From the NCBI GenBank assembly GCA_027023445.1, contig JALVVK010000012.1, forward strand, positions 1,139-65,138: a stretch of DNA of 64,000 nt, written 5' to 3'. The stretch comes from Deltaproteobacteria bacterium. Lineage in GTDB: Bacteria > Desulfobacterota > Dissulfuribacteria > Dissulfuribacterales > JALVPX01. The notes under the pieces were generated by a model that saw only the letters and a list, made by a program, of their open reading frames with translations, was not told the DNA's origin and did no database searches. Every line of letters starts with the position of its first letter. Position 1 is the first letter of the stretch. Shown in pieces: positions 11,776 to 25,318 of the stretch. The position numbers and the translations under genes were made by a program.

Positions 11776-12264
11776 ATGGAAATTACCACCACCCGATTCG
11801 GCAAGATTCACATAGAGGATGACAGAATCCTCAATTTCGTGCATGAAATTCTGGGCTTTCCTGAATCCAGGCGATTTGTGCTGCTGCCTCATAAAGAGGC
11901 GTCTCCTCTCTACTGGCTTCAGAGCCTGGATCAGCCGGATCTGGCGTTCGTGGTGGTGCGGCCGGAGACCTTTCTGTCCGACTATTCATTTGATCTGCCG
12001 GAAGACATTCAGTCAGAACTGAAGATTGAGCGGGCTGAAGACGCTGTCGTGCTGGTGTTGCTCACCATAGAAAGACGCAATGATTCAACGAATGTCACGG
12101 CTAACCTGCTGGGACCGGTGGTAATAAATGAGAGGCATCGGCTGGCCTCCCAGGTGGTTCTGAATCCCAACAAATACCCGGTACAGTTTCCGGTTACCTC
12201 CTCAACAGGGCGTTCTTCCCGTAAGAGACAGGGGGGGCAGGTTCAGAAGGCCGCCGGTGCTTAA
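11776..12264 (+). CDS. fliW: Flagellar assembly factor FliW (CsrA antagonist)
   Basis: 'ITTTRFGKIHIEDDRILNFVHEILGFPESRRFVLLPH..SPLYWLQSLD' is a typical FliW sequence. Start set at ATG 11776 rather than TTG 11752. Confidence 0.9.
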   Translation: MEITTTRFGKIHIEDDRILNFVHEILGFPESRRFVLLPHKEASPLYWLQSLDQPDLAFVVVRPETFLSDYSFDLPEDIQSELKIERAEDAVVLVLLTIERRNDSTNVTANLLGPVVINERHRLASQVVLNPNKYPVQFPVTSSTGRSSRKRQGGQVQKAAGA

Positions 12265-14909
12265 TGCAGGATTCTTTCTTCCCCTGGAGGATTTCCCGTG
12301 CCGTCGAATGAAATTCTGTCCATGAACCGGGCTTGGCGGTCCGCAAAGGATCTGGCGCGGTCAAGCACTGCGGCCACGTCCACGATCAGCGCCACGGATC
12401 CGTCTCCCAGCACGGTTGAGCCGGAGAAGCCCGGCTGGTTAGTCAGATATTCTGCCAGGGGTTTTATGACCACCTCCTGCTGGCCCAGCAGCCTGTCCAC
12501 GCCAAGACCCGCCTCAGTGCCTCCGTGATTGACTATGACCACAAAGACCTTTTCTTTGTTCACGTCGGCGCCCGTTCCCCTGAATATCTTGCCCAGTCGT
12601 ATGAGCGGCATGGTTTTTTGCCGCACCGAGATAACCTCAAAGCCTTCTACAGAGCCAATGTCATCGGAGGTGAGTCTCACCGCCTCCTGAACCCCTGATA
12701 GCGGGATAGCCATGTTCTGCTTCCCTACCCGTACCAGAAGGGCCTGGATGATTGCCAGGGTAAGCGGTACCCGCAGCTCCATGGTTGTGCCGTGTCCCGT
12801 TTCGGAAAAGATCTTTATTACTCCTCCGAGGCGCTGGATGTTTTTCTTTACCACATCCATTCCAACACCCCTGCCGGATGTCTCTGAAACCGTCTCGGAG
12901 GTGCTTATTCCAGGATAAAAGATGAGTTCCCAGATTTTTTCTTCACTGAGTGATTGAGCCTCTTCCCTGCTCATCAACCCGAGGGATACGGCTTTTTGTG
13001 TCAGTGCTTCTCGGTTTAGGCCACGGCCGTCATCAGTAACACGGATAAGCACAAAGTTGCCCTCCTGGGAGGCTGAAATTTCCAGCCGTCCGATTTCGTT
13101 TTTCCCCATGCGTGCTCGTATTTCAGGGGGTTCAATCCCATGATCAACGGCATTTCTGACTATGTGAAGCAGGGGATCGGCAACCTGTTCCATCATGCGC
13201 TTGTCCAGGCTTGTATCTGTGCCTGCCATTACAAGCTCAACTTTTCTGCCCAGTTTCCTGGAAAGATCCCTGACTATCCTGGGATAGCGGTTGAACAGGT
13301 GGCTTACAGGCAGCATGCGCATGTTCATGACCCGGTCCTGAAGGTCCCTGACCGTCCTTTCAAGAGCGTCCACCTGTTCCCCCATTCGTATGAAGAGGTT
13401 TTTCAACGGTTTTAGTTTCCTTGCCCCCATTATGCGCTGGTCCATCCATTCCCTGTATAACAGCCTGGTTTCTTCTGCCATTTTTGTAAGGGAGGATTTG
13501 ATTACTACAAGATCTCCCACGTCACCCAGAAGATCTTCCAGTTTGTCCAGGTCAATGCGTACGGTCTGCGCCTGGAATATTTCCGGGGCCGTCGTCTTCC
13601 CCGGCGCTGTTTCCGTCTCCGGTCTCTTCATGCCAGGTGATTCATCGCCTGGATCTTTGGCCCGGGGTATTTCTTCGGGAACTTCTCCAAAAAAGTTGTC
13701 GATGGCATTATCAAGATCATCAATAATGGTAGACGCCTGGTCAGGCTTCTCCTCAGCAGGCATGCCCACATCAGGACCGGATTCAAGTCCTGGCAGGATG
13801 GCCTGCAGGCCAGACCACATTTTTTTGAGCGGTGCCGGATCAAAGCCACCTCCCTTGCCCTCAGAGGACAGTGCCTCGGTGAGTCGTTCCTCCCATTCAT
13901 TCAACAGGCTGACCACGTCATCATAGTCCATGTAATGGGCAGAGCTTTTCAGCTTTTCAATGGCATCCTGACATCTGATGGCCCAGTCCCGTTGAAAATT
14001 TTCAGGAATGTTCGCAAGGGGACCGGAGATTTCCCTGGCAAAATCAAGAAAAATTTCATAAAGTTCCCTGTCTTCTTCCCTGAGTTCCCCTGGCGCGGGC
14101 TGGTCGGCTTTTCCTGGTTCCTCTTTTACCTGTACAGGTTCAATTATTCCCTTGAGAAGGCCGTTCAACCTGTTCAGAAAGTCCGACGGTACAGGTGCTT
14201 GAGGGCTTGATTCCAGTTGCTGTCTCAATCCGGCAAGCCCTTTTAACAGTTCTTCTATGCCCACGTAATGGGTTACCCTTTCCATGTCCCTTACGGTTGC
14301 GACCAGTGCTTCAGCCTTCACCTCCGGCTCTCGTATGATCTGGAGAACCCTGGAATACAGGGCGTTCATCTCCTCCGTGTATATGGAATAGAGTTCCTGG
14401 TCCTCATCGGGTTCCTCGGCCGGAGAATATGCGGCAGGGTCTTCAGGCTTCCCGGGCGTGTTGTCAGTTTTGACCGCAGTGGCTTTTTCGCTGTCTTCAG
14501 GCATGTTCCCGGATGGTTTTTCCTGTGTCCCTGTTAATGCGGCAAGGGCGTCTGTCAGGGCGGTTATATCTGTGTTTTCATCTTTAGTGGAGGCTATTTC
14601 CCCTAAGAGCTGCTTCAGCAGGTCAACTCCCTGGAATATCATGTCCATGATTTCAGGAGTAAGCTCCATGTCTCCGGACCGTATTTTGTGGAAAAGGTTT
14701 TCCATTGCGTGGGAGAGTGTGGCAGTTCGGTCAAGCCCCATGTATCCGGCGGCGCCCTTTATGCTGTGCAGGTTCCGGAAACAGTCGTTAAGAAGGTTCG
14801 TGTTGTCCGGGGTCTGCTCAAGCAGCAGGAGATTTGGTTCCAGTTCCTCCAGGTTTTCCCTGGTTTCCACAACGAAGTCTTGCCACATTTCCTGGTCAAA
14901 GTCGCTCAT
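12261..14909 (-). CDS. cheA: Chemotaxis histidine kinase CheA (882 aa, extended N-terminal region)
   Basis: Hpt motif 'FRNLHSIKGAAGYMGL'. Dimerisation segment 'TVRIDLDKLEDLLGDVGDLVV'. HATPase motifs 'HIVRNAVDHGIE', 'DDGRGL', 'GRGVGMDVV'. C-terminal CheW-like domain '..VLGDGSVALIVDVAAVL'. Confidence 0.95.
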   Translation of the reverse strand: MSDFDQEMWQDFVVETRENLEELEPNLLLLEQTPDNTNLLNDCFRNLHSIKGAAGYMGLDRTATLSHAMENLFHKIRSGDMELTPEIMDMIFQGVDLLKQLLGEIASTKDENTDITALTDALAALTGTQEKPSGNMPEDSEKATAVKTDNTPGKPEDPAAYSPAEEPDEDQELYSIYTEEMNALYSRVLQIIREPEVKAEALVATVRDMERVTHYVGIEELLKGLAGLRQQLESSPQAPVPSDFLNRLNGLLKGIIEPVQVKEEPGKADQPAPGELREEDRELYEIFLDFAREISGPLANIPENFQRDWAIRCQDAIEKLKSSAHYMDYDDVVSLLNEWEERLTEALSSEGKGGGFDPAPLKKMWSGLQAILPGLESGPDVGMPAEEKPDQASTIIDDLDNAIDNFFGEVPEEIPRAKDPGDESPGMKRPETETAPGKTTAPEIFQAQTVRIDLDKLEDLLGDVGDLVVIKSSLTKMAEETRLLYREWMDQRIMGARKLKPLKNLFIRMGEQVDALERTVRDLQDRVMNMRMLPVSHLFNRYPRIVRDLSRKLGRKVELVMAGTDTSLDKRMMEQVADPLLHIVRNAVDHGIEPPEIRARMGKNEIGRLEISASQEGNFVLIRVTDDGRGLNREALTQKAVSLGLMSREEAQSLSEEKIWELIFYPGISTSETVSETSGRGVGMDVVKKNIQRLGGVIKIFSETGHGTTMELRVPLTLAIIQALLVRVGKQNMAIPLSGVQEAVRLTSDDIGSVEGFEVISVRQKTMPLIRLGKIFRGTGADVNKEKVFVVIVNHGGTEAGLGVDRLLGQQEVVIKPLAEYLTNQPGFSGSTVLGDGSVALIVDVAAVLDRARSFADRQARFMDRISFDGTGNPPGEERILH

Positions 14910-14913
14910 GTTT

Positions 14914-15300
14914 TTATCCTTGTATCAGATTCAACAGGCCATTGTGTTCATTTTTCCTTATGAAGCCAAGGGCATTCAGTTCCTTGACCTGCCGGACAAT
15001 TTCAGGGTCGGTCATGAGACTCATGAAAATTATCCTTGCCCCCGGGTCCCATGCCTTGATAAGCCTGGCCCCGGTTATGCCGTCTGTGCCCCGCATGGTA
15101 ATATCCATGATTACATAATCCGGATGACATTTTTTATAGAGTTCATAGCCTTCGGACCCATCCGCGGCCTGTCCGGCGACCAGGTGTCCGGCTTTTTCAA
15201 GGACGCTTATGATCCTTTTCCTCATAAAACTGGAATCATCTACCACCAATACCCTTGACACGGTTCCATCCTTTAAAATTTTTGTCAGGAGGTGTTTCAC
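14914..15300 (-). CDS. cheY: CheY-like single-domain response regulator
   Basis: 128 aa. 'VLVVDDSSFMRK' and 'DYVIMDITMRGTDG' are receiver-domain motifs with the acceptor Asp in place. There is a 4-nt overlap with the upstream gene and a 4-nt gap to cheA. Confidence 0.85.
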   Translation of the reverse strand: MKHLLTKILKDGTVSRVLVVDDSSFMRKRIISVLEKAGHLVAGQAADGSEGYELYKKCHPDYVIMDITMRGTDGITGARLIKAWDPGARIIFMSLMTDPEIVRQVKELNALGFIRKNEHNGLLNLIQG

Positions 15301-16751
15301 ACCATAAAATGAAGGCCATTTAAAAGTTCTGTCCTCAGAATTTCCTCGTAAGAGTCGATTTCCGGCAAAATATCCTCGACTTTTCCCGGTTCCAGGAATC
15401 CGTCCGAAAGGCCGGATTCCAGCACAGCTTCAAGAGGCGCCGGATGGAGACATGTTTCCGGTTTCTGCACATAGACCCTGCCCCGTTTCTTCCTTACCGC
15501 AGCAAGGCCTTCCCGCGCGACATCTGCTCCGGACAGCAATATTACATAAAGGCCCGGGCCAAAAAAATCGGCCGCTCCGGACAGCAGGTTTTCAATGTCC
15601 AGAGGACTTTTTCCACCCGGAGTCTGCTGGATCACGCATTCTCCAGGGGTTCCGGTCAACTCGAAACAACGGTCCATCCCGGCCAGCCAGCATACACCCT
15701 GGGCCAGAAGACCCGGGTCCTTTATTTCAGCCACGGTTCCCCTGCAAACGCTGTTCAGGTATTCTGCCACCGGGGATGTCAGGTCTGTGTCCATGTCCTG
15801 TATCATCAGGCAGGCGTAATTTCCTTTGCTGAACACCCTTGGAAGAAGTTTCTGTATTTCCAGCAGCCCCCCTGCCCCTCCGATTATAATCAACAGGTGT
15901 CGGGATGGCGGTCCGGGAGAGGATTTTCGGGAGACCGGCCTGAGGGTTCTGGCCCTGCGGATATTTTTTATTTTAAGCTCTTTTGTCAGAGTCGCGTATT
16001 TTGCGATTCTTTTTGAGGTCTTTTCCCACGCGGCATCGTCCCGGGGCTTGGGAACGAAATCAACGGCTCCAAGACGCATGAAATCCATTATTAACGGCAG
16101 GTTGCTTTCAGACAGGCCGCTTATAAGCAGGACAGGAGCGGGTGACCTTATCATGATGTGTTTCAGTGTGAGGTCCCCTGCCATGACCGGCATGTTTATG
16201 TCCAGGGTGACAAGATCAGGGACATCATCCTGGATCAGCACAAGGGCCTCCTGTCCGTTTGATGCCTGGCCTATGACCTCTATGTGGTCCATGGATTCAA
16301 AGGTGCGACGGAGAGTCTTGCAGAAAAATGGGGAGTCATCCACTATCAGCACCCTGACCGGAGGCCGCCCTGTGTACCCGGTTTCCTGCTCGTTGTTCCC
16401 TTCATCCATGCGCCTCAGGGCCTCCATGACCAGAAAATTCCACGGCATTTCTATGGTCTGACTGTCTGTCCCTTCCTGGTTAAGGATAAAGGTGCCAGAG
16501 TTCCATTTCATGATGGAAAAAAAGGCCTCTGTCCCCGTATCCTCAGGAGAAACCGCGTGAACTACCTGACCGTTACTGAAATAGATTTTGCCCTGTTTTC
16601 TCCCATGTCGGATCAGGAGCCTCCTGTCTCTTCCTTCAAGGCATATGAACTGGATGAGTTCGGCCAGGGGTACCTGCTCCAAGACCCCGCTGAAACCATG
16701 CTCCGGTTCTTTAATGGAGTTTAAGCTCGGTTTAAGGGGGAACGAGGCCAT
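15297..16751 (-). CDS. DUF4388 (PATAN-like) + receiver + CheB-like domain protein (CheB-like 1, catalytic motifs degenerate)
   Basis: The N-terminus 'LAELIQFICLEGRDRRLLIRHGRKQGKIYFSNGQVVHAVS..GTEAFFSIMKWNSGTFIL' fits the DUF4388 pattern. REC motifs are 'VLIVDDSPF' and 'VTLDINMPVMAG'. The C-terminal domain is CheB-like, but it carries 'IGGAGGL', 'IQDMDTD' and 'LSGADVA' where CheB has GASTGG, QHMP and GMGxDG. Confidence 0.8.
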   Translation of the reverse strand: MASFPLKPSLNSIKEPEHGFSGVLEQVPLAELIQFICLEGRDRRLLIRHGRKQGKIYFSNGQVVHAVSPEDTGTEAFFSIMKWNSGTFILNQEGTDSQTIEMPWNFLVMEALRRMDEGNNEQETGYTGRPPVRVLIVDDSPFFCKTLRRTFESMDHIEVIGQASNGQEALVLIQDDVPDLVTLDINMPVMAGDLTLKHIMIRSPAPVLLISGLSESNLPLIMDFMRLGAVDFVPKPRDDAAWEKTSKRIAKYATLTKELKIKNIRRARTLRPVSRKSSPGPPSRHLLIIIGGAGGLLEIQKLLPRVFSKGNYACLMIQDMDTDLTSPVAEYLNSVCRGTVAEIKDPGLLAQGVCWLAGMDRCFELTGTPGECVIQQTPGGKSPLDIENLLSGAADFFGPGLYVILLSGADVAREGLAAVRKKRGRVYVQKPETCLHPAPLEAVLESGLSDGFLEPGKVEDILPEIDSYEEILRTELLNGLHFMV

Positions 16752-16755
16752 GGAA

Positions 16756-17856
16756 TTATTCCTTTCCCGTGCAGCGCCACAGCGATATGTGTTTTGATAA
16801 TTCTGAGGGGCTGTATGCCTTCACTCCAAGGTTTTCAATAATAAATCTGGGTAGTTCAGGTGACAGGCAGGTCTCCGGGGTCTGGGCCAGGATACAACCC
16901 TCATTTCTGATGACTTCTCTGGCCCCCGTCAGCCCTTTGTGTCCATCTCCCGAAAGGAAAATTGTCAGGGCGTCGTTACCCAGTACCTCGCTTGCGGAGA
17001 GCAGTAGAAGATCTATGGCGCCCTCTTCCTTCGAAAGATCGGTTCTTGGGGTCAGGTGCATGTAAAGGCTGTCTCCCTCTCTTTCTATGTGGGCGGCCTC
17101 ATCCTCACTTTTAAGGTAGATATGGCCTGCCTTCAGCCTTTGCCTGTTTCTTGCCCTCAGTGTCTTGAGCGGCGCGTAGCCTTTCAGGTATTCCGTGAAG
17201 GCATCCAGGTATCTGCCCTGAATCCCCATGGATATGATCAGGCTGGGCCTGAGATCCGGGGAAAGATTGGGAACCAGAGAAAGCAGAGCTGCGTATCCAC
17301 CAACAGAGGCATATATGATTACGGCGCACCGGGCGTCTTCCGCCTGTGCCTCAGATTCCACCTTCAATGTGTCCGTACCGGGTTTCAGGCGAAGATATCT
17401 TGCGGCTTCCAGGTGGACACGAGCGGCACGTTTCGCCTTTATCCTGAGAATGTCTGCCTGTTTCTCCAGGTCTTCACCTTCCTGATGGGAAGGCTTTTTG
17501 AAAAAATCCACCGCGCCGTAACGCAAGGCCTCAAATGTGACTTTTGACCCATCTGCGGTAAAGGCGCTTACCATGAGAGTTGGTATGGGATGCCGGATCA
17601 TTATGTGTTTTAATACCGTAAGCCCATTCATTCCGGGCATGTGCACATCCAGCGTGCACAGATCGCAGTGATTTGATGACAGGAAGGAAAGCGCCTCCCT
17701 GCCACTGAGCGCATAACCCAGGACCTCAATATCCGGGTCGTTGCCAAGAATTTTTTTCATGATTCTGCACATCATCGGGGAATCGTCCACGATAAAGGCC
17801 TTTATCCTGGATTTGCCTTCTCCTGGATGAGTGGAGTTAATTTGCTGGCTTGTCAT
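16756..17856 (-). CDS. Receiver + CheB-like domain protein (CheB-like 2)
   Basis: REC motifs 'AFIVDDSPMMCR' and 'CTLDVHMPGMNG'. The CheB-like domain has 'YASVGGY' (Ser kept), 'ISMGIQGR' (His position not conserved) and 'LSGDGHKG'. Confidence 0.8.
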   Translation of the reverse strand: MTSQQINSTHPGEGKSRIKAFIVDDSPMMCRIMKKILGNDPDIEVLGYALSGREALSFLSSNHCDLCTLDVHMPGMNGLTVLKHIMIRHPIPTLMVSAFTADGSKVTFEALRYGAVDFFKKPSHQEGEDLEKQADILRIKAKRAARVHLEAARYLRLKPGTDTLKVESEAQAEDARCAVIIYASVGGYAALLSLVPNLSPDLRPSLIISMGIQGRYLDAFTEYLKGYAPLKTLRARNRQRLKAGHIYLKSEDEAAHIEREGDSLYMHLTPRTDLSKEEGAIDLLLLSASEVLGNDALTIFLSGDGHKGLTGAREVIRNEGCILAQTPETCLSPELPRFIIENLGVKAYSPSELSKHISLWRCTGKE

Positions 17857-17901
17857 ATATTCACCCTTGATGTCCCTGGAAAAGTCTTCTTCACGTAAAG
17901 G

Positions 17902-17967
17902 CGCAAAGCTCGCAAAGACAATCTGTTGTTATTAAAGCAAAAAACCTTGCGTCTTGGCGACTTTGCG
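17902..17967. repeat. Imperfect long hairpin in the CheB-like 3 / CheB-like 2 intergenic gap
   Basis: The left arm is cgcaaagctcgcaaagac (17902-17919). The right arm is gtcttggcgactttgcg (17951-17967), whose reverse complement is cgcaaagtcgccaagac. The loop is about 31 nt and A-rich. Confidence 0.5.
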
Positions 17968-17994
17968 TGATGTTTTGGATTTTTTACGAAACCA

Positions 17995-19071
17995 TCACCC
18001 TTTTTTGTTTGTCATCTGGTCCTCGATTCCTGCAGTCTCGGCATGTTTTTTCCCGAATGTCTCTATTTGAGTCCACAGGAGATGCTCTGATACCGGCTTG
18101 GCCACGCCGGCATCAAGGGCCAGACGGGCCGTCTGATCACAAACGCAATAACGGGGTTCAAGCACCAGGCTGAGTCCGTCCTTGTCCCTTATCGCCTTCA
18201 TTCCCCTGATGCCGTTTTCAGTCGTGCCGCCCAGGACTACCGCAGCCGCCCTGGATCCGTACACCATGGCAATTTCTTCGAGCATCTGGTCAAGATCCTG
18301 GTCTGGCCCCACTCTTACCCGGACTTTTTTGGACTGTTCACTTATCTGCAGGCTCCAGGGTTCCTTGATCCATGTGAGAAGACAGTTTCCTCTGTTCAAT
18401 GTAACAGGACTTGAGCATGAAACCTGCCATGGCAGTACCAGGTCCATTTCAGAAGTGTACGAGCGGAGGGCGTCTCCTGATAATCCCTGGCAGCAGAGGA
18501 AGGAGAGGGGCAGAGACGGGTTTATGTTGGCCAGCATGCGGATCAGGCAGGCGGATGCACCTATGTCAGCCACAACCGCCACGACCGCTCCTGGTTCAAT
18601 GTTTTCCTGATCGACCTTTAATGGTTCAACAGGGCGCTTGGCGCGTTTAATGGCCCGGCAATTAACCTTGGCCGCCTGTTTTACCAGCTGGGTTAATTCC
18701 CTTGCCTGGTTGCGGATATCATATGAAACCGTGCCGGAGGGCTTGGGGAAGAAATCTACCGCTCCCAGCCTGAGTGCCTCCAGGGTAATTTCACCCTGGT
18801 TGGCAAGAGCGCTTATCATTACAACCGGTCTCGGATCGCGTATCATAATGTGTTTGATGGTGGTGAGGCCATCCATAACGGGCATGTCCACATCCAGCGT
18901 GATGACATCAGGATTAAGCTCATCTATTATCCGGAGCGCTTCTTCCCCGTGTTTCGCAACCCCGATCACCTCTATTTCCCTGTCCCGGGACAGCATTTCC
19001 ACCAGGGCCTTGCGCATAAAGGCGGCATCATCCACGACCAGGGCCTTTATTTTTGATGTTCGGTCACCCAA
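17995..19071 (-). CDS. Receiver + CheB-like domain protein (CheB-like 3)
   Basis: REC motifs 'ALVVDDAAFMRK' and 'ITLDVDMPVMDG'. The CheB-like domain has 'IGASACL', 'CCQGLSGD' (no His) and 'LGGTTENG' (no Asp at the aligned position). Confidence 0.8.
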   Translation of the reverse strand: MGDRTSKIKALVVDDAAFMRKALVEMLSRDREIEVIGVAKHGEEALRIIDELNPDVITLDVDMPVMDGLTTIKHIMIRDPRPVVMISALANQGEITLEALRLGAVDFFPKPSGTVSYDIRNQARELTQLVKQAAKVNCRAIKRAKRPVEPLKVDQENIEPGAVVAVVADIGASACLIRMLANINPSLPLSFLCCQGLSGDALRSYTSEMDLVLPWQVSCSSPVTLNRGNCLLTWIKEPWSLQISEQSKKVRVRVGPDQDLDQMLEEIAMVYGSRAAAVVLGGTTENGIRGMKAIRDKDGLSLVLEPRYCVCDQTARLALDAGVAKPVSEHLLWTQIETFGKKHAETAGIEDQMTNKKG

Positions 19072-19089
19072 TAATATTTCCTCCTGGTC

Positions 19090-19944
19090 CTATGAAGCCA
19101 CAACGGCCCCCCAGCTCTGCTCTATTTCATCCCTTCTGGCCTTTAACTTGGCTGCCACTCGCTTGATCTGCGCCGGTTCAAGCCCAAGCCTTTTGGGAAC
19201 AAGCAGCTTTCCGTTGACCCCAAGTGATCCTCCATGCCCGATTTGAAGCTTATGGCACAATCCGTCTGCCAGAAACACAGCGGCCGCGGCCCTGGCATAT
19301 GGGCCCGCTCCTTGGGGGTGATGATGGTAGCGGACGACATTTATGAGCAGGTCGCTCAGCCCCCATCGGGCAACCAGATATCCGCCCACCTCTCCATGTG
19401 TCAGTCCGTATTGCATTTCCGCTTCCCAGAGAGGAATTTCCTTTTCCTTCTGAATGTTGAGAATCTCCCGGAATTCTTCGGTGAAGTAGAGACACATGAG
19501 AAAAATACCCAGGTCATGGAGCATACCGGCGGTGAAAAGTTCATCCTGATCCAGTTCTGGCAGGAGTTCGGCGAGCATTTTAGAGGTGGTGGCCACACCA
19601 ACTGAATGGATCCAGAGATCGGAGGTTTTAAATTCCTCAAAGCCAAGATCCCCTGAAAATGTTCCTGTCAGAGAAAGGCTGACCACGAGGTTGCGTACCT
19701 CCTCAAAGCCGAGAATCACTATTGCCCTTGCGAGACTGCTGACTTCTCCTTTAAGGCCGTAAAACGGGGAATTGGCCACCTTTAGAATCTTGGCGGTGAC
19801 CACAGGATCTTCCCGGATGATCCTGTCAAGGTCCTGTGCTGACGTGCTGACACTGTTAAGGCCGTCAAGTACCCGTTGCAGGGTGTGCGGTATGGTGGGC
19901 AGATCCTCTATTTTTTCAAGACGTTTTACAACGGAGATGGCCAT
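19090..19944 (-). CDS. HDOD domain protein (first gene of the che operon)
   Basis: 'LPTIPHTLQRVLDGLNSVSTSAQDLDRIIREDPVVTAKILKVANSPFYGL' and 'MLHDLGIFL..HGEVGGYLVARWGL' fit the HDOD pattern. Confidence 0.85.
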   Translation of the reverse strand: MAISVVKRLEKIEDLPTIPHTLQRVLDGLNSVSTSAQDLDRIIREDPVVTAKILKVANSPFYGLKGEVSSLARAIVILGFEEVRNLVVSLSLTGTFSGDLGFEEFKTSDLWIHSVGVATTSKMLAELLPELDQDELFTAGMLHDLGIFLMCLYFTEEFREILNIQKEKEIPLWEAEMQYGLTHGEVGGYLVARWGLSDLLINVVRYHHHPQGAGPYARAAAAVFLADGLCHKLQIGHGGSLGVNGKLLVPKRLGLEPAQIKRVAAKLKARRDEIEQSWGAVVAS

Positions 19945-20049
19945 TGGGTTATTCCTTGATTGATATGCGCAAAAACCAGGGATTCAATCTCTTTTTCTAT
20001 ATCGACGGTTCAGGGAAGTGACTTAAGCGGTAAAGGATATTCTGCTCCT

Positions 20050-20076
20050 TAAACTTCCAGTCCGCGGGGTCGATAA
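20050..20076 (+). promoter_or_regulatory. Candidate sigma-28 (FliA) promoter upstream of mglB
   Basis: TAAACTTC-N11-GTCGATAA compared with the consensus TAAAGTTT-N11-GCCGATAA gives 6/8 and 7/8 matches. It ends 73 nt upstream of the mglB ATG at 20150. Confidence 0.5.
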
Positions 20077-20149: not shown

Positions 20150-20551
20150 ATGTCAGACTTAGTATTGACTGCCCCGGTACTTGAGGAGGCCAGAAGCCAG
20201 ATTGAAAATGCGCTGATCAAGGCCGGGGTCCATACAGTACTTCTCATAGACGAAGCGGGCAACATTGTAGCGAGTTGCGGAGCGGAATCGGAACGGCTGG
20301 ACACAACGTCCCTTGCCGCTCTGGCCGCGGCAAATTTTGGTGCCACTTCCCAGATGGCAAAACTCATTGGAGAGGATGATTTTTCCCTGCTGTTTCATAA
20401 GGGCAAGAAGGACAGCATCCATTTCGCCAGGGTCGGGGGCAATCTGATACTTATTACCATATTCGGAGACGATGTCTCCCTTGGGCTGGTAAGGTTAAGG
20501 GTGGCTCAGTTGGCCGAGACCATCAGAGGAGTTTTTGGATTCGAAAGTTGA
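20150..20551 (+). CDS. mglB: Roadblock/LC7 domain protein, MglB-like GTPase-activating partner
   Basis: 133 aa. 'LEEARSQIENALIKAGVHTVLLIDEAGNIVASCG' fits the Roadblock/LC7 pattern. It lies 3 nt upstream of an MglA-type GTPase, the same order as Myxococcus mglBA. Confidence 0.8.
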   Translation: MSDLVLTAPVLEEARSQIENALIKAGVHTVLLIDEAGNIVASCGAESERLDTTSLAALAAANFGATSQMAKLIGEDDFSLLFHKGKKDSIHFARVGGNLILITIFGDDVSLGLVRLRVAQLAETIRGVFGFES

Positions 20552-20554
20552 GCT

Positions 20555-21175
20555 ATGGCACTTATTGATCTCAGTAAAAAAGAGGTGCACTGTAAGATTG
20601 TTTACTATGGTCCTGGCCGCTGCGGGAAAACCACCAATCTGCTCTATATCTATAATGCCATGAACAGCGCGGCCAGGGGAAAGATGCTTACCATAGAGAC
20701 CAAGGGAGACAGAACGCTTTTTTTTGATCTGCTTCCTCTTAATCTGGGCAAGGTGAATGGTTTTGACATTCGCATACAATTATACACCGTGCCCGGTCAA
20801 ACCATATACGAGGCCACACGCAAGCTGGTGCTTAAAGGCGTTGACGGGCTGGTGTTTGTGGCAGACTCCCTTAAGGTAAGGCAGAACAAAAACATCGAAA
20901 GCATGGATGATCTCAGAAGAAACCTCAGGGAACACAACCTGGGGATGAACGAGATACCCATAATACTTCAATATAACAAGCGTGATCTTGCCACTACCCC
21001 CATTCCCACCCTGACGGTGGAAGAGCTGGAACACGATCTTAATCAGGAATTGAAAACCAGGGGTTTTGAGGCTGCAGCAACAAAGGGAATCGGGGTGTTT
21101 GAAACCCTGAAGGAAATCAGCAAACGCACGGTCAGGTATGTGGTAAGCAAGCATCTGATGCCTGGAAGTCGTTAG
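20555..21175 (+). CDS. mglA: MglA-type Ras-superfamily small GTPase
   Basis: The sequence 'EVHCKIVYYGPGRCGKTTNLLYIYN', 'GDRTLFFDLLPL', 'LYTVPGQTIYEATRKLVLKGVDGLVFVADS' and 'QYNKRDL' is close to M. xanthus MglA as recalled. This includes the MglA-specific TVPGQ in place of DxxGQ. Confidence 0.9.
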   Translation: MALIDLSKKEVHCKIVYYGPGRCGKTTNLLYIYNAMNSAARGKMLTIETKGDRTLFFDLLPLNLGKVNGFDIRIQLYTVPGQTIYEATRKLVLKGVDGLVFVADSLKVRQNKNIESMDDLRRNLREHNLGMNEIPIILQYNKRDLATTPIPTLTVEELEHDLNQELKTRGFEAAATKGIGVFETLKEISKRTVRYVVSKHLMPGSR

Positions 21176-21203: not shown

Positions 21204-22967
21204 ATGGGCCAGTCGGACAAGCTCCCTGATACAGAAAATTTCACCAGAGAGGTGGAAGACGTAATAGATGATCTTTTCGCCCCTTCAAAGACCATTGAAA
21301 TTGATCCCCTTACTAATGAAATAAAGGAAGTGGACAGGGCTCCCGAGCGATCTCCGGACGAATTGTCTCTGGAGCCGGACACTGCCGTGGAAAAAGGGGA
21401 GGATGTTCATCCGTCTGAAAATGAGGCGCCGGCAGTGGAGGAAGAAACAGCATCTTCTACCTCCGGGCCGGTTGAGTTTGACCTGGATCTGGAACTTGAG
21501 CTTGAACCCGAGCCCGAATCAGGGCCGGAGTCCTCTGTTCAGCAGGCATCGGGCAGTGAGGCGGCGGAAAAGGATTCAGACGGCCTTTTGAACCAGATAC
21601 AGCAGGCAATATGGACTCTTGAATGGGAGGTCACGGAAGAAAGTGTACGAAATCTGAAGGACATGCTCAAAGGCCTTGATGGCAGCGCCACATCCTCTGA
21701 TCCCGGGTTTGGCCAGGTGGTCAGTGAAATGATCCAGGTGCTGAGCGATATGGAGCGGGACGCGGAAAATGTCCCCACCTCGGCTCCCGTGGCCCTTAAG
21801 AAGGGGGTTGAATATCTTATGGCCTCGGCTGCCGGTGAGTCGGGTCCGGACAAGTTGCGCGAGCTTTTTGATCACGCGGTTTCCGAGCTGAGCGCCGCTT
21901 TTGCGAGCCAAGAAGAAATATGTGAAAGCCCTGCCTCTGGCCCTGACACAGGCGAACAAATGGAAACCCTGGATCTGGAAATCGAGATGGAACCGGAGTC
22001 CGAATCAGAGCCGGAAACGAAACCGGAACATGAATCCACCGGGCCTCAAGTGAGCGGAAAGGCTCAGGCGGAAACGATGGCACCGGTTCCTGCCGGCTCG
22101 GGGAGATTATCACAGGCGCAACAAAGGTCTTCAGCTGGTCTGTCTGTTGAGACGCCAGACGAGCCTGAGCAAATACCTGTCAGGGAAGAAAAGGAATCAT
22201 CAAAGATACTTAATGAACATCTAAATACGTTGCGTGACTGCGTACGCCGTATTCGTCCTGTGGAAGACCTGCTGGCCAGAACCAGGGGGATGGCAAAACT
22301 TCAGGTTTTTCTTGGAGATCTCAGGACTCGTCTTGAAAGACAGATTGAGCTACTTGAGCATGGGCCGGCCAGAGGAGTCCCTGTGGCGCAGGTTCCATCA
22401 GGGGGGAATGAAACCGTAGAGGTCGTTCCGGGTGAGGCTCAGGAGGTAAAACGGGCGGAAACGAACCGGCCCGGTTCTGAATCCAGGGGGCAGGAGGAGG
22501 GAAAATGTCCCTGGAGGGAGCTGTTCCTTGCCAGGAGAGGGCGCATTACAGTTGGGCTCATCATGGAGGAGGTTGCCTTTCATGGAACCGTTCCCTTTTG
22601 GGCCGGCTCCGGCCTTCTGAATCAGGAAAAAGTCATTCTCAAACAGCTGAAACCATGGCCCTGGTCAAAATTGAGCTCCATGGTTCAGGGAAGCCTTCTG
22701 GCTGTAAAGGAGGAAGACCTGGCACAAATGGAGGTGCCGGTACTGAATTTAAACGATCCTGCCTCAAAAGCGGAGAGAGGCCGTAACGTGGTAATCCTGA
22801 GTCAGGGGGAAAAAACCGCGGCTATCTTCCTGGATTCCGAACCGGATTATTTCAGCCTGAAGGCAGAGCACACCTATAAAGCCGCGGATGCGGAAGGTTT
22901 TCTGGAAGGGGTGTTAAAAGTGGATGGCAATACTATCCACATCATATCCGTGGCCGGGATGAAATGA
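21204..22967 (+). CDS. Highly acidic 587-aa protein of unknown function with a divergent C-terminal CheW-like domain
   Basis: AAAGGAG RBS. There are two E/P/L-rich acidic tracts, 'FDLDLELELEPEPESGPES' and 'LDLEIEMEPESESEPETKPEHES'. The C-terminus 'ELFLARRGRITVGLIMEEVAFHGTVP..VPVLNLND..NVVILSQGEKTAAIFLDSEP..FLEGVLKVDGNTIHIISV' follows the CheW strand pattern. That domain call is by-eye only. Confidence 0.6.
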   Translation: MGQSDKLPDTENFTREVEDVIDDLFAPSKTIEIDPLTNEIKEVDRAPERSPDELSLEPDTAVEKGEDVHPSENEAPAVEEETASSTSGPVEFDLDLELELEPEPESGPESSVQQASGSEAAEKDSDGLLNQIQQAIWTLEWEVTEESVRNLKDMLKGLDGSATSSDPGFGQVVSEMIQVLSDMERDAENVPTSAPVALKKGVEYLMASAAGESGPDKLRELFDHAVSELSAAFASQEEICESPASGPDTGEQMETLDLEIEMEPESESEPETKPEHESTGPQVSGKAQAETMAPVPAGSGRLSQAQQRSSAGLSVETPDEPEQIPVREEKESSKILNEHLNTLRDCVRRIRPVEDLLARTRGMAKLQVFLGDLRTRLERQIELLEHGPARGVPVAQVPSGGNETVEVVPGEAQEVKRAETNRPGSESRGQEEGKCPWRELFLARRGRITVGLIMEEVAFHGTVPFWAGSGLLNQEKVILKQLKPWPWSKLSSMVQGSLLAVKEEDLAQMEVPVLNLNDPASKAERGRNVVILSQGEKTAAIFLDSEPDYFSLKAEHTYKAADAEGFLEGVLKVDGNTIHIISVAGMK

Positions 22968-22996
22968 ACAAAGCCTAAGGTTTAAGGAGTTTGCAA

Positions 22997-25318
22997 GTGC
23001 AAGAAGCCGATATACAAAACAGGCTTTTAGAGGCCGATCTTTATCTCAACCAGGGGCTGGCTGAGGAGGCCAGGGCCGTGTACAAAAAGATTTTGGCCGA
23101 GCTTGGGGATAAGGATGAGAAACTCAGTGAAGAATTGAGAGACCGAATCGGGAAATTGAAAGAGCAGGGTAATGCTGAATCCCCTGGCAAAGATTCAACC
23201 GAGGAATCAGATTCCCATATTGAGGAACAAAAGAGATTTGAAAGCTGCCTTGGCCTGATAGAAGCCGGGTTTCATAATGAGGCCATAGATGAATTAAAGG
23301 CCCTGCTGGACACGGGGTTTAATCCCGGTCTCGTAAACACCAAGATAGCGGAGTGTTATCTACGGCTGGACATGCCCTTTGACGCGCTTGATCATTTTGA
23401 GGATGCCCTTAACGCCCCGGATCTTTCTGTTCATGACCGGTTGGAATTATTATATCAGGTTGCCCTCTGTCATGAGAAAACCGGTGCGGTTGCCCTGGCA
23501 ATCGAGGCGCTGAACGAGATCAAACGCCTGGACCCCTCATACAGGAATGTGTCTCAGCGCCTGGAGCAGCTAACGCAGACCGCTCAAAAGTATGGACGGT
23601 TTTACTATCTTATCAGAAATGGGTTTTTGTCGGATGAACAGCTTGAAAGAGCCAAGGAAATGGCCAAGCAGAGCAAAAAATCCATTGAGAGTACCCTGCT
23701 GAACCAGTTTGGTATAGACAAGGCCGATCTTGGTAGATCGCTCAGCGAATATTATAAGTGTCCCTTTGTTGAATTTAACGAGATGGAGCTTTCTTCCACT
23801 CCCTCTTGTATCCACGGGATAAAGGAACATTTTTTCCGCAGTAACTGCTGCGCTCCAATCAGGGAGAAGGCCGGCGCCCTTCTCGTTGCGGTGGATAACC
23901 CTCAGGACCTGGTAAAGATAGATAATATAAGGCGGGTCCTCAAGGCAAAAAGCTTTGAATTCGCCGTGGCACTCAAGGAAGACATAGACAAGTTTACGGA
24001 TTATTTCTATGGAAAGTATTCCATCGGGGGTGAGGAAGACGATGTCTTTGAACATCTCGAGCTGGTGGAAGAAGAGGAAGATACGTTCGAAGAAGAGGAA
24101 GAGGTCGTATCTGACGCGGATAGCGTAGTTGTGCAGATGGCCAACAAAATTATCGAGGACGCCTATGTCCGTCAGGCATCGGACATACACATGGAGTCCA
24201 TGAGTGGCAAAAGGGGAGTCCTCATCAGGTTCCGCATTGACGGCGACTGCGTGCGATATCAGACAATTCCATATAATTACAAAAAGGCCCTTATTTCAAG
24301 AATCAAGATTATGTCCAACCTTGATATAGCCGAGAAACGGTTGCCCCAGGATGGAAAAATCAAATTCAGAATACGCTCTGGAAAGGTGATCGAGCTTCGT
24401 GTGGCAACCCTGCCCACAACCGAGGGAAACGAAGACGTGGTTCTGAGGATCCTGGCGTCTTCCGAGGCCATGCCACTTGACAGAATAGGGCTTCTGGATG
24501 AGAGCCTTGCCACCTTAAAAGGTCTTCTTGAAATGCCTTATGGCCTTATGCTCGTGGTGGGGCCTACTGGATCTGGTAAAACCACCACGCTTCACGCGGC
24601 CCTTGGATATATCAACAGGCCCAACAAAAAGATCTGGACGGCCGAGGATCCTGTTGAAATCATGCAGGACGGCCTGAGGCAGGTTCAGGTCCGTCCAAAC
24701 ATAGATCTGACCTTTGCCCGTGTGTTGAGGGCGTTTCTGAGGGCGGACCCCGACGTGATAATGGTTGGTGAGACCCGCGACGAGGAAACGGCAAACACAG
24801 TGATAGAGGCCTCTCTTACGGGCCACCTGGTATTTTCAACCCTTCATACCAATTCTGCTCCGGAAACAGTGACAAGACTTCTTGGCATGGGCATGGATCC
24901 CTTTAATTTCGCGGACGCCCTGTTGGGTGTTCTTGCCCAGAGGCTTGTAAAGCGTCTTTGTTTCAAGTGCAAGGAGGCCTATGAGCCGGATGAAGAGGAA
25001 AAGGCGCTTCTGATAGAACAGTTCGGGCATCATCCCTCAAATCCCCTGACAATGGAACAGCTGAATGGGATAACCCTTTACCGGCCCAAGGGATGTTCTG
25101 TATGCAACCAGACCGGATATAAGGGAAGGCTTGCCATCCATGAACTCCTGGTTGCTGATGACGGACTGAGAAAGCTCATCCAGAAAAGGAGACCTGTGGG
25201 AGAGATAAGGGATCATGCCCTGGCGAATGGAATGTTGACCCTTAAACAGGATGGTATCATCAAGGTCCTTAAAGGAGATACTGACCTCAAGCAGGTCAGG
25301 GCGGCCTGCATAAAGTAA
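22997..25318 (+). CDS. PilB/GspE-family secretion/pilus-extension ATPase with N-terminal TPR array
   Basis: Walker A 'GPTGSGKTTTLHAAL', Asp box and Walker B 'IMVGETRDEETA', His box 'GHLVFSTLHTN'. Tetracysteine motif 'CFKCKE..CSVCNQTGYKGR'. A T2SSE_N-like segment is 'LSDEQLERAKEMAKQSKKSIESTLLNQFGI'. The N-terminal ~200 aa are TPR-like ('EADLYLNQGLAEEARAVYKKIL', 'AECYLRLDMPFDALDHFEDAL'). GTG 22997 lies 7 nt after AAGGAG and is preferred over TTG 22991. Confidence 0.9.
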   Translation: MQEADIQNRLLEADLYLNQGLAEEARAVYKKILAELGDKDEKLSEELRDRIGKLKEQGNAESPGKDSTEESDSHIEEQKRFESCLGLIEAGFHNEAIDELKALLDTGFNPGLVNTKIAECYLRLDMPFDALDHFEDALNAPDLSVHDRLELLYQVALCHEKTGAVALAIEALNEIKRLDPSYRNVSQRLEQLTQTAQKYGRFYYLIRNGFLSDEQLERAKEMAKQSKKSIESTLLNQFGIDKADLGRSLSEYYKCPFVEFNEMELSSTPSCIHGIKEHFFRSNCCAPIREKAGALLVAVDNPQDLVKIDNIRRVLKAKSFEFAVALKEDIDKFTDYFYGKYSIGGEEDDVFEHLELVEEEEDTFEEEEEVVSDADSVVVQMANKIIEDAYVRQASDIHMESMSGKRGVLIRFRIDGDCVRYQTIPYNYKKALISRIKIMSNLDIAEKRLPQDGKIKFRIRSGKVIELRVATLPTTEGNEDVVLRILASSEAMPLDRIGLLDESLATLKGLLEMPYGLMLVVGPTGSGKTTTLHAALGYINRPNKKIWTAEDPVEIMQDGLRQVQVRPNIDLTFARVLRAFLRADPDVIMVGETRDEETANTVIEASLTGHLVFSTLHTNSAPETVTRLLGMGMDPFNFADALLGVLAQRLVKRLCFKCKEAYEPDEEEKALLIEQFGHHPSNPLTMEQLNGITLYRPKGCSVCNQTGYKGRLAIHELLVADDGLRKLIQKRRPVGEIRDHALANGMLTLKQDGIIKVLKGDTDLKQVRAACIK

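What the first reader, a model, noticed from the sequence alone, without database searches (positions are those of the whole stretch)
15297..19071. Three tandem REC-CheB-like paralogues whose methylesterase catalytic motifs look degenerate, with no CheR in the window
Three consecutive genes each encode an apparently intact receiver domain: a DD pair plus 'TLD(I/V)xMP(V/G)M(A/N/D)G'. Each is fused to a CheB-type domain.

I compared them by eye with Salmonella/E. coli CheB, whose catalytic residues are Ser164 in GASTGG, His190 in QHMP, and Asp286 in GMGxDG.
- Copy 1 has IGGAGGL / IQDMDTD / LSGADVA.
- Copy 2 has YASVGGY / ISMGIQGR / LSGDGHKG.
- Copy 3 has IGASACL / CCQGLSGD / LGGTTENG.

The His position is lost in all three. 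The Ser is lost in copy 1. The Asp is doubtful in copies 2 and 3.

I recognise no CheR in the 64 kb, and the adjacent MCP lacks a C-terminal NWETF-type pentapeptide. This looks like a set of phosphorylatable pseudo-methylesterases, perhaps receptor or array binders or phosphate sinks, rather than an adaptation system.
Basis: partly seen in the sequence, partly recalled or inferred. Interest (0 to 1): 0.65.

Follow-up and report, generated by a model that had tools for sequence, protein, structure and literature searches.

The report
Three catalytically dead CheB-like response regulators
Three neighbouring genes in a hydrothermal-vent sulfur bacterium encode ancient copies of the chemotaxis enzyme CheB that keep their phosphorylation switch and fold but have lost the catalytic site, so a chemotaxis-like pathway here appears to work without receptor methylation.

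Summary
Genes at 19071-17995, 17856-16756 and 16751-15297 (minus strand) each encode an intact receiver domain plus a CheB-fold domain.

**Catalytic triad.** In an alignment to a profile of 58 canonical CheBs, all with Ser164/His190/Asp286, the three copies carry:
- copy 1: G292/D319/D410 (the Asp is ambiguous)
- copy 2: S184/G211/K307
- copy 3: D169/G196/N286

That serine is the first residue of the following helix.

**Age and constraint.**
- The copies are not recent duplicates. Their C-terminal domains are 19-24% identical to each other.
- Each copy has its own orthologue family across Thermodesulfobacteriota. One of 339 sampled family members has a full triad.
- The C-domains appear to be under purifying selection.

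- The operon is HDOD, three pseudo-CheBs, CheY, CheA. It faces MglB, MglA, an unknown protein and a PilB/GspE-type ATPase.
- This block is conserved as far as the isolate Dissulfurirhabdus thermomarina.

**No sign of methylation.**
- No CheR occurs in the window or in eight related loci checked.
- The receptors of these clusters lack methylation-site motifs.

**Reading.** These are most likely phosphorylation-gated, non-catalytic adaptor or output proteins. Their partners are unknown, and I found no prior description.

The parts
17995..19071 (-). Copy 3: REC plus CheB-fold pseudo-enzyme, 358 aa. REC spans 18736-19041 and the CheB-like domain 18097-18582. Phospho-acceptor D60 is at 18892-18894. 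Triad positions: D169 (18565-18567), G196 (18484-18486), N286 (18214-18216).
   Evidence: Pfam. Profile alignment. AlphaFold pLDDT 92.8 and pTM 0.90. Foldseek best matches are CheB 6YMZ/1A2O with TM 0.78-0.85. Own orthologue family.
16756..17856 (-). Copy 2: REC plus CheB-fold pseudo-enzyme, 366 aa. REC spans 17479-17796 and the CheB-like domain 16792-17322. Phospho-acceptor D70 is at 17647-17649. Triad positions: S184 (17305-17307), G211 (17224-17226), K307 (16936-16938).
   Evidence: Pfam. phmmer against 1A2O. Profile alignment. Orthologue family with Ser in 68 of 101 members and His in 0 of 101.
15297..16751 (-). Copy 1: PATAN(DUF4388) plus REC plus CheB-fold pseudo-enzyme, 484 aa. PATAN spans 16401-16691, REC 16035-16352 and the CheB-like domain 15378-15890. 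Phospho-acceptor D184 is at 16200-16202. Triad positions: G292 (15876-15878), D319 (15795-15797), D410 (15522-15524, ambiguous).
   Evidence: Pfam. Profile alignment. Family of 119 members with Gly at the Ser position in 116. AlphaFold pLDDT 88.7. Foldseek best matches are CheB 1A2O/6YMZ with target-normalised TM 0.78-0.83.
19090..19944 (-). HDOD-domain protein, first gene of the operon.
   Evidence: Pfam HDOD E=1.6e-54. Conserved in this position in L002, L081, L083, L086 and L087.
14914..15300 (-). Single-domain CheY-like response regulator. Its start overlaps the stop codon of copy 1.
   Evidence: Pfam Response_reg. Best NCBIfam hit is CheY, below the cut-off.
12261..14909 (-). CheA histidine kinase (Hpt, dimerisation, HATPase_c and CheW-like domains) with a 340-aa unannotated linker.
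   Evidence: Pfam. Sub-threshold second Hpt-like stretch.
20150..20551 (+). MglB-like Roadblock/LC7 protein, divergently transcribed from the operon.
   Evidence: Pfam Robl_LC7. Best NCBIfam hit is MglB, below the cut-off.
20555..21175 (+). MglA-like small Ras-family GTPase.
   Evidence: Pfam Ras/Arf. Conserved next to the MglB-like gene in five related loci.
21204..22967 (+). Conserved 587-aa acidic protein with no family assignment. Its C-terminus gives a weak CheW-like hit.
   Evidence: No Pfam hit at E<=0.001. CheW E=0.0027, 17.8 bits, below the cut-off. Syntenic orthologues.
22991..25318 (+). PilB/GspE-family ATPase with an N-terminal TPR and an MshEN domain.
   Evidence: Pfam T2SSE E=6e-120 and MshEN. 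Best NCBIfam hit is PilB at 503 bits, below the 676-bit cut-off.
25385..27772 (-). Chemoreceptor (dCache, HAMP, MCP signalling domain). It has no methylation-site consensus and no C-terminal pentapeptide.
   Evidence: Pfam. Motif scan. Comparison with MCPs of canonical loci.
27772..28236 (-). CheW coupling protein.
   Evidence: Pfam CheW E=1.6e-18.

Best explanation
The three genes encode three old, distinct descendants of CheB. Each is still a phosphorylatable response regulator with the CheB two-domain fold, but none is an enzyme any longer.

**The module.** They belong to a conserved chemosensory block of Thermodesulfobacteriota:
- on one side: MCP, CheW, and the operon HDOD, three pseudo-CheBs, CheY, CheA
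- divergently: MglB, MglA, a 587-aa protein and a PilB/GspE-type ATPase

The block has no CheR, and its receptor has no recognisable methylation sites.

**Proposed mechanism.**
1. The receptor controls CheA.
2. CheA~P passes phosphate to four receiver domains: CheY and the three pseudo-CheBs.
3. As in CheB, the unphosphorylated receiver packs on the former active-site face of the C-terminal domain, and phosphorylation releases it.
4. The freed C-terminal domain, remodelled differently in each paralogue, binds a partner instead of hydrolysing a methyl ester.
5. Copy 1 also carries a PATAN domain. In cyanobacteria this domain binds the N-terminal part of PilB, so copy 1 probably couples the kinase to the neighbouring PilB-type ATPase and the MglA/MglB switch.
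6. Copies 2 and 3 probably act on other conserved members of the block or on the receptor array.

**Shown:**
- domain make-up
- intact receiver residues
- loss of the triad and of most other invariant CheB active-site residues
- retained fold
- family-wide conservation of these states
- apparent purifying selection
- conserved synteny
- lack of CheR and of methylation motifs

**Inferred:** phosphotransfer from this CheA, domain opening on phosphorylation, binding as the function, and the identity of every partner.
For: **Architecture.** All three hit Pfam REC and CheB_methylest above threshold, but they score 155-211 bits against NCBIfam CheB models whose cut-offs are 293-342.

**Triad.** It is lost in the profile alignment to 58 canonical CheBs. 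Canonical CheBs score 298-518 bits on that profile and 66 of 67 have S-H-D. The window copies score 170-212 bits.

**Family survey:**

| Family | Full triad | Ser position |
|---|---|---|
| 1 | 0 of 119 | Gly in 116 |
| 2 | 0 of 101 | Ser in only 68 |
| 3 | 1 of 119 (a canonical CheB) | variable |

**Wider remodelling.** Other residues that are conserved in 90-100% of canonical CheBs are also replaced: T165, P192, F195, H233, P258, S266, M283, G284, E306 and G313-M314-P315. Each family has its own conserved signature instead.

**Fold.** AlphaFold models are confident. Their best PDB matches are full-length CheB 1A2O/6YMZ with target-normalised TM 0.78-0.85, including the closed two-domain arrangement.

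**Constraint.** dN/dS of the CheB-like domains against the 70%-identical relative is about 0.10, the same as CheA. This was computable for copies 2 and 3 only.

**Age.** C-domains are 19-24% identical between copies. Orthologues of each copy are 40-76% identical across taxa.

**Synteny.** The block is conserved in L081, L083, L002, L086 (Dissulfurirhabdus thermomarina) and L087.

**No CheR.**
- None in the window.
- None among the called genes of L081, L083, L086, L087 and L088.
- None among the previously unassigned ORFs I scanned in L006, L010 and L027.

**Receptors.** MCPs of pseudo-CheB clusters carry a mean of 0.25 strict methylation motifs, against 2.27 for MCPs next to canonical CheBs (n=8 and n=51, Mann-Whitney p=5e-4).

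**Literature.**
- PATAN domains bind the PilB1 N-terminus in Synechocystis (bioRxiv 10.1101/2021.06.11.447907).
- PATAN genes are often found near mglA/mglB (PMC4316618).
- Phosphorylation opens CheB (PMC8609364 abstract).
Against: - No experiment or expression data exist. Only DNA metagenome runs hold this sequence.
- dS is near saturation, so the dN/dS values are rough.
- The closed conformation in the models may be learned from 1A2O.
- Copy 2 keeps a Ser in a GxSxGG-like loop, and copy 1 may keep an Asp, so residual or altered chemistry is not strictly excluded.
- No pilus genes other than the ATPase lie in the window, so the PilB link rests on gene adjacency and on an analogy with cyanobacteria.
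- The rest of the genome was not searchable. A CheR acting in trans cannot be excluded.
Confidence: 0.6

Rival explanations
1. Methylation-independent feedback on the receptor array, in the manner of CheV. The dead CheB domains keep the ancestral ability to dock on the chemoreceptor. When phosphorylated they bind the receptor and damp or tune CheA, replacing covalent adaptation.
For: - CheB's only known partner is the receptor, and the fold and two-domain arrangement are retained.
- The system has no CheR and no methylation motifs, yet may still need adaptation.
- The genes sit in one operon with CheA and CheY.
Against: - Nearly all residues lining the canonical substrate cleft are replaced, and differently in each of the three families. 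This argues against one shared ancestral docking mode.
- The receptor's E/Q-pair sites, which CheB recognises, are absent.
- Three separately conserved paralogues suggest three different partners.
Confidence: 0.25
2. Phosphate sinks. Only the receiver domains matter. They drain phosphate from CheA and so shape CheY~P kinetics, and the C-terminal domains are structural baggage.
For: - Four receiver domains are encoded next to one CheA, all with intact phospho-acceptor residues.
- No CheZ, CheX or CheC phosphatase family was found in the window.
- Sink response regulators are known in other multi-CheY systems (my background knowledge).
Against: - The C-terminal domains have been kept for a long time with family-specific conserved residues, and dN/dS is about 0.1.
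- Copy 1 has in addition kept a PATAN domain.
- A sink needs only about 120 residues.
Confidence: 0.12
3. Still enzymes, with a non-canonical catalytic apparatus or a new substrate. One example would be copy 2 using Ser184 with another base.
For: - Copy 2 keeps Ser in a YASVGG loop with high alignment confidence.
- The copy 2 family has a conserved Asp at CheB position 283 ('SGD', 85%).
- Copy 1 may keep an Asp at position 286.
Against: - His190 is absent in 0 of 101 members of family 2, and no alternative conserved His or Lys emerged.
- The Ser itself is replaced by Ala, Gly or Thr in a third of family 2.
- Family 1 has an invariant Gly, and family 3 a highly variable residue, at the nucleophile position.
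Confidence: 0.07
4. Artefact or decay: mis-assembly, pseudogenes, or a recent tandem duplication now degenerating.
For: Tandem arrangement and degenerate motifs are what decaying duplicates would look like at first sight.
Against: - The ORFs are intact, and the identical gene is found in an independent assembly record and in several metagenome runs.
- Each copy has orthologues with the same architecture and order across Thermodesulfobacteriota.
- The paralogues are only 19-24% identical in the C-domain.
- The domains appear to be under purifying selection.
Confidence: 0.02

Closest known systems
CheB protein-glutamate methylesterase/deamidase (Salmonella 1A2O, P. atrosepticum 6YMZ)
   Same: - N-terminal receiver with the same phospho-acceptor residues.
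- C-terminal alpha/beta domain of the same fold.
- The same predicted closed two-domain packing.
- Encoded with CheA, CheY, CheW and an MCP.
   Different: - No Ser-His-Asp triad, and most other invariant cleft residues are replaced.
- Scores below the NCBIfam CheB cut-offs.
- No CheR partner in the cluster, and a receptor without methylation motifs.
- Three paralogues in tandem, one with an extra PATAN domain.
[quoted passage not shown]
   Same: - PATAN domain directly N-terminal to a receiver.
- Encoded in a Che-like cluster that lacks methylation enzymes, together with a plain CheY.
- A PilB-type ATPase is the experimentally shown PATAN partner there and a conserved neighbour here.
   Different: - Copy 1 has a third domain, the dead CheB domain.
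- The organism is a sulfur-metabolising Thermodesulfobacteriota.
- The ATPase here has TPR and MshEN domains and no pilus genes around it.
Frz chemosensory system with MglA/MglB polarity switch (Myxococcus xanthus)
   Same: A Che-type pathway linked with a small Ras-like GTPase and its Roadblock-type partner. The link is by gene adjacency here and by genetics there.
   Different: - Frz has an active CheR (FrzF) and CheB (FrzG) and a methylated receptor.
- In Myxococcus the mglBA genes are not encoded next to the interaction partners named in PMC4316618.
CheV (CheW-REC) and phosphate-sink CheY proteins
   Same: Extra CheA-phosphorylated receiver proteins that tune signalling without methylation. 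This is a functional analogy only.
   Different: The output domain is unrelated: a CheW fold in CheV, or none at all in sink CheYs.
Degenerate GGDEF/EAL proteins such as FimX and LapD (my background knowledge)
   Same: Signalling enzymes turned into non-catalytic binding or receptor modules while keeping their fold.
   Different: A different fold and ligand. No ligand is known for the dead CheB domain.

Membership tests
CheB methylesterase/deamidase | N-terminal receiver domain with the acidic pocket, phospho-acceptor Asp, Ser/Thr and Lys | tested here: met
   Counterparts of D10, D11, D56, S83 and K107 are present in all three copies. Pfam Response_reg E=1e-20 to 1e-22.
CheB methylesterase/deamidase | C-terminal CheB_methylest alpha/beta fold | tested here: met
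   Pfam PF01339 at 52.8-88.9 bits against a cut-off of 24. Models of copies 1 and 3 match 3SFT/1CHD with target-normalised TM 0.78-0.83. Copy 2 was not modelled.
CheB methylesterase/deamidase | Catalytic triad Ser164-His190-Asp286 (S165-H191-D287 in 6YMZ, PMC7698151) | tested here: not met
   Copy 1 has G/D/D?, copy 2 S/G/K and copy 3 D/G/N in the alignment to a profile of 58 canonical CheBs.
CheB methylesterase/deamidase | Score above the curated NCBIfam CheB model cut-offs | tested here: not met
   NF001965 scores are 155, 211 and 183 bits against a cut-off of 293. NF009206 scores are 136, 179 and 143 bits against 342.
CheB methylesterase/deamidase | Works with a CheR methyltransferase on a methyl-accepting receptor | tested here: inconclusive
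   No CheR in the 64-kb window or in eight related loci. The cluster MCP has 0 strict methylation motifs. The rest of the genome could not be searched.
CheB methylesterase/deamidase | Methylesterase or deamidase activity stimulated by phosphorylation | not testable with these tools
   Needs biochemistry.
PatA-type (PATAN-REC) response regulators | PATAN/DUF4388 domain directly N-terminal to a receiver domain | tested here: met
   Copy 1 only: PF14332 E=1.9e-21 over residues 21-117, followed by REC over 134-239. The same architecture is seen in nearly all of the 119 listed family members.
PatA-type (PATAN-REC) response regulators | Two-domain protein in which PATAN is the output domain | tested here: not met
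   Copy 1 has a further conserved C-terminal CheB-like domain of about 175 aa.
PatA-type (PATAN-REC) response regulators | PATAN binds the N-terminal region of a PilB-type ATPase | not testable with these tools
   Only conserved adjacency to a TPR-MshEN-T2SSE ATPase was observed.
Frz-like Che system coupled to MglA/MglB | Che core plus MglA/MglB module, with active CheR and CheB adaptation enzymes | tested here: not met
   MglA-like and MglB-like genes are adjacent and syntenic. There is no CheR, and the CheB homologues lack the triad.
Phosphate-sink response regulators | The receiver domain alone suffices, and any other domain is unconstrained | tested here: not met
   The C-terminal domains have family-specific conserved residues and dN/dS of about 0.10.

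The most novel reading that the evidence does not exclude
This would be a previously undescribed class of chemosensory pathway that has given up receptor methylation altogether. CheB was triplicated and each copy converted into a phosphorylation-gated adaptor. Through these adaptors a single CheA would drive a small-GTPase polarity switch (MglA/MglB) and a PilB-type ATPase, and possibly feed back on its own receptor array by binding instead of by covalent modification.
Probability: 0.3. Interest if true: 0.8.

Novelty: new variant of a known kind. Interest (0 to 1): 0.62.

Why it matters
**For chemotaxis biology.** CheB/CheR methylation is the textbook adaptation mechanism of bacterial chemotaxis, and CheB is the textbook response regulator with an enzyme as output. 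Here a conserved lineage kept CheB's switch and fold but discarded its chemistry three times over, in a cluster with no CheR and a receptor without methylation sites.

This raises two testable questions:
- How does such a pathway adapt?
- What does a CheB fold bind once it no longer hydrolyses anything?

It also ties a Che kinase physically to PATAN, MglA/MglB and a PilB-type ATPase outside cyanobacteria and myxobacteria.

**For annotation.** Public sources name these proteins 'protein-glutamate methylesterase' or 'chemotaxis response regulator CheB'. That would wrongly credit these organisms with methylation-based adaptation.

**For follow-up.** Two cultured relatives carry orthologues: Dissulfurirhabdus thermomarina, which has the same gene block, and Dissulfurimicrobium hydrothermale. 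This makes experiments feasible.

Tried and rejected
- **Source genome.** It returned related loci but not the source genome, so I could not look for canonical cheB/cheR elsewhere in it.
- **Expression.** The search for sequencing runs found only DNA metagenomes from hydrothermal vents and no RNA.
- **Promoters and terminators.** The scan of 12000-20300 found no more sites than shuffled sequence gives, so the operon structure rests on gene spacing only.
- **Extra domains.** A relaxed Pfam search gave only sub-threshold hints: a second Hpt-like stretch in CheA and a CheW-like end on the 587-aa protein.
- **Literature.** Five searches found no description of catalytically dead CheB homologues or of PATAN-REC-CheB proteins. 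The Geobacter che-cluster paper does not mention them.
- **C-terminal receptor motif.** I considered that the conserved 'RFKVS' end of the cluster MCPs might be a docking motif. I rejected this because similar endings occur in MCPs of canonical loci and it is probably just the end of the helical bundle.
- **Alignment error.** I considered that the triad loss might be an alignment artefact. I rejected this because phmmer against PDB, MAFFT family alignments and hmmalign to a canonical profile agree for the Ser and His positions in all three copies and for the Asp position in copies 2 and 3, apart from a one-residue register difference at copy 3's Ser position (Ile in the ungapped phmmer reading), where none places a Ser; copy 1's Asp is the only ambiguous one. 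The secondary-structure register of the copy 1 and copy 3 models agrees as well.

Full report
**What is there**

The region holds a tightly packed minus-strand operon:

| Gene | Coordinates |
|---|---|
| HDOD protein | 19944-19090 |
| copy 3 (358 aa) | 19071-17995 |
| copy 2 (366 aa) | 17856-16756 |
| copy 1 (484 aa) | 16751-15297 |
| CheY-like protein | 15300-14914 |
| CheA | 14909-12261 |

- Gaps between genes are 18, 138, 4, -4 and 4 nt.
- All three copies hit Pfam Response_reg and CheB_methylest above the gathering thresholds.
- Against NCBI's curated CheB models the three score 155-211 bits where 293-342 are required.

**The catalytic residues**

- phmmer alignments to Salmonella CheB (1A2O) and P. 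atrosepticum CheB (6YMZ) already showed the losses.
- For a rigorous test I took 57 CheB ORFs from very diverse phyla, found in the loci, and aligned them with 1A2O. D56, S164, H190 and D286 were invariant in all 58.
- I built an HMM from that alignment and aligned the three copies and their families to it.

| Copy | Ser164 | His190 | Asp286 |
|---|---|---|---|
| 1 | G292 | D319 | D410 (low posterior; other aligners put V411 or Ala here) |
| 2 | S184 | G211 | K307 |
| 3 | D169 | G196 | N286 |

- Codon coordinates were verified.
- The receiver residues (two acidic Asp, the phospho-acceptor Asp, Ser, Lys) are intact in all three.
This is a register error. The family alignment conserves Ala163 and Gly166 around a variable residue 164.
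- In the AlphaFold model the strand ends at A168. D169 follows it, and S173 starts the helix, as T168 does in CheB.
- The triad numbering agrees with the literature: S165-H191-D287 and D56 in 6YMZ (PMC7698151).

**Not chance, not decay**

- Against the canonical profile, 67 CheB-type ORFs from other phyla score 298-518 bits. Sixty-six carry S-H-D and one has A-H-D.
- The window copies score 170-212 bits.
- Each copy has its own orthologue family in Thermodesulfobacteriota. Named members include Dissulfurirhabdus thermomarina, Dissulfurimicrobium, Thermodesulfatator, Desulfococcus and Desulfosarcina. The related loci add Desulfatitalea and a Candidatus Electrothrix MAG.

Triad status in the families:

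| Family | Full triad | Ser position | His position |
|---|---|---|---|
| 1 | 0 of 119 | Gly in 116 | lost |
| 2 | 0 of 101 | Ser in 68; otherwise Ala, Gly or Thr | Gly in 61 |
| 3 | 1 of 119 (a canonical CheB at the weak end of the list) | variable | lost in all but two |

- The damage goes beyond the triad. T165, P192, F195, H233, P258, S266, M283, G284, E306 and G313-M314-P315 are conserved in 90-100% of canonical CheBs and are replaced in all three families.
- Each family has its own conserved signature instead.
- The C-terminal domains are only 19-24% identical to one another and to CheB. The receivers are 40-52% identical.
- Against the 70%-identical relative, dN/dS of the CheB-like domains of copies 2 and 3 is about 0.10, the same as CheA. 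dS is close to saturation, so this is a rough figure.
- A phmmer search with copy 1's C-domain alone over 1.84 billion cluster representatives found only 336 hits at E<=0.001 and 34 at E<=1e-10.
- Its nearest hits carry Gly at the Ser position, and its weakest are canonical S-H-D CheBs.

**Fold**

- AlphaFold models are confident: copy 1 has pLDDT 88.7, and copy 3 has pLDDT 92.8 and pTM 0.90.
- Their best PDB matches are full-length CheB 6YMZ and 1A2O, with target-normalised TM 0.78-0.85 over about 340 columns. This includes the relative position of the two domains.
- The C-terminal domains match 3SFT and 1CHD at TM 0.78-0.83 with 16-22% identity.

**Context**

- Divergently from the operon lie an MglB-like Roadblock protein, an MglA-like small GTPase, a 587-aa acidic protein without family, and a PilB/GspE-family ATPase with TPR and MshEN domains.
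- Beyond these, on the minus strand, lie a dCache-HAMP MCP and CheW.
- Upstream on the other side are flagellar genes: flgF/G/A/H/I, a giant flgK, flgL, csrA and fliW.
- The block from the ATPase to CheA is conserved gene for gene in:
  - relatives at 70% and 56% identity (L081, L083)
  - an uncultured Desulfobacterales MAG at 40% (L002)
  - the isolate Dissulfurirhabdus thermomarina (L086)
  - L087
- In L086 and L087 the flagellar genes are not adjacent, so the flagellar linkage is not part of the conserved unit.
- A second, more distant cluster type occurs in L088, L010, L027 and L006. It again has three CheB-like genes, one of them with PATAN, together with MCP, CheW, CheY, a HAMP protein, CheA and a zinc-ribbon ParA-like ATPase.

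**No methylation system**

- None of the 48 non-overlapping ORFs of 90 aa or more in the window hits a CheR family.
- None of the called genes in L081, L083, L086, L087 or L088 does either.
- Nor do the previously unassigned ORFs I scanned in L006, L010 and L027.
- The window MCP has no match to the methylation-site consensus [ASTG][ASTG]xx[EQ][EQ]xx[ASTG][ASTG], one match to a loose version, and no C-terminal pentapeptide.
- MCPs encoded next to canonical CheBs carry a mean of 2.27 strict and 4.84 loose motifs (n=51).
- MCPs of pseudo-CheB clusters, including the window's, carry 0.25 strict and 1.1 loose (n=8). Mann-Whitney p is about 5e-4.
- The rest of the source genome could not be searched. 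It is a MAG from hydrothermal-vent metagenomes.

**Mechanism**

What is established:
- These are phosphorylatable, CheB-folded, non-catalytic proteins.
- They have been kept under constraint in a CheR-less chemosensory module.

What I infer:
1. CheA phosphorylates all four receivers.
2. Phosphorylation opens the receiver/C-domain interface as in CheB (PMC8609364 abstract).
3. The exposed, family-specifically remodelled surface binds a partner.

Partner candidates:
- For copy 1 the PATAN domain gives a concrete lead. In Synechocystis the PATAN domain of PatA-type regulators binds the N-terminal part of PilB1 and is sufficient for output (bioRxiv 10.1101/2021.06.11.447907).
- PATAN genes are recurrently found near mglA/mglB (PMC4316618).
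- Three differently remodelled surfaces and several conserved neighbours (HDOD, MglA, MglB, the 587-aa protein, the ATPase) fit three different partners better than one shared receptor-docking mode.

Rivals:
- Receptor feedback in the manner of CheV remains a serious rival.
- A pure phosphate-sink role is disfavoured by the constraint on the C-terminal domains.
- Residual catalysis is unlikely because even copy 2's Ser is replaced in a third of its family and no substitute base is conserved.

**Novelty**

- Five literature searches found no description of dead CheB homologues or of the PATAN-REC-CheB architecture.
- Public sources label these proteins 'response regulator', 'chemotaxis protein CheB' or 'protein-glutamate methylesterase'.
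- I therefore rate this a new variant of a known kind: a pseudo-enzyme lineage of CheB embedded in a distinctive, conserved gene block.
- It is of real interest to people who study chemosensory systems, but it rests on sequence inference only.

Noticed in passing
window 6322-10545 (+): A very large FlgK hook-associated protein of 1407 aa, about 2.5 times the usual size, with long Thr/Ser/Gly-rich insertions. Relatives have 1353-1359 aa versions.
   Followed up: partly
window 12261-14909 (-), CheA residues ~107-447: A 340-aa unannotated stretch lies between the Hpt and dimerisation domains. One segment (residues ~283-381, '...KLKSSAHYMDYDD...') gives a sub-threshold Hpt hit (E=0.0032, 18 bits). 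In D. thermomarina a separate 201-aa gene with a faint Hpt hit precedes CheA. Extra Hpt-like units might serve the four receivers.
   Followed up: partly
window 21204-22967 (+): A 587-aa acidic, Pro/Glu-rich protein with no family. Its position between the MglA-like gene and the ATPase is conserved in five related loci. Its last ~70 residues give a sub-threshold CheW-like hit (E=0.0027).
   Followed up: partly
window 22991-25318 (+): The PilB/GspE-family ATPase carries an N-terminal TPR region and an MshEN domain. The latter is a c-di-GMP-binding module in MshE (my background knowledge). No other pilus or secretion genes are in the window.
   Followed up: partly
L088, L010, L027, L006 (related loci): A second cluster type in Desulfobacterales also has three CheB-like genes and no CheR. 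Members of it carry 'T/S-E-D' in place of S-H-D, and a 'T-E-D' subgroup of at least 26 members is seen among copy 3's more distant relatives. A zinc-ribbon ParA/MinD-like ATPase and a HAMP-only protein are conserved neighbours.
   Followed up: partly
window 44001-48000: G+C jumps to 0.64 over the P-type cation ATPase gene (43155-45905), then drops to 0.46 around a PEP-CTERM protein gene (46429-47142). The window average is about 0.53. This may reflect foreign DNA.
   Followed up: no
window 11514-11735 (+) and 11752-12264 (+): A CsrA gene (73 aa) sits directly upstream of fliW and after flgL. This is the flagellin-linked CsrA-FliW regulatory pair, abutting the end of cheA on the opposite strand.
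   Followed up: no
L030 289-1317 (Nitrospinales MAG): One otherwise canonical-scoring CheB (330 bits) has Ala instead of the catalytic Ser while keeping His and Asp. This could be an isolated case of inactivation or a sequencing error.
   Followed up: no
window 47759-52015 (+): A 1418-aa fusion protein with two BcrAD_BadFG ATPase units and a DUF2229 CoA-enzyme-activase domain.
   Followed up: no
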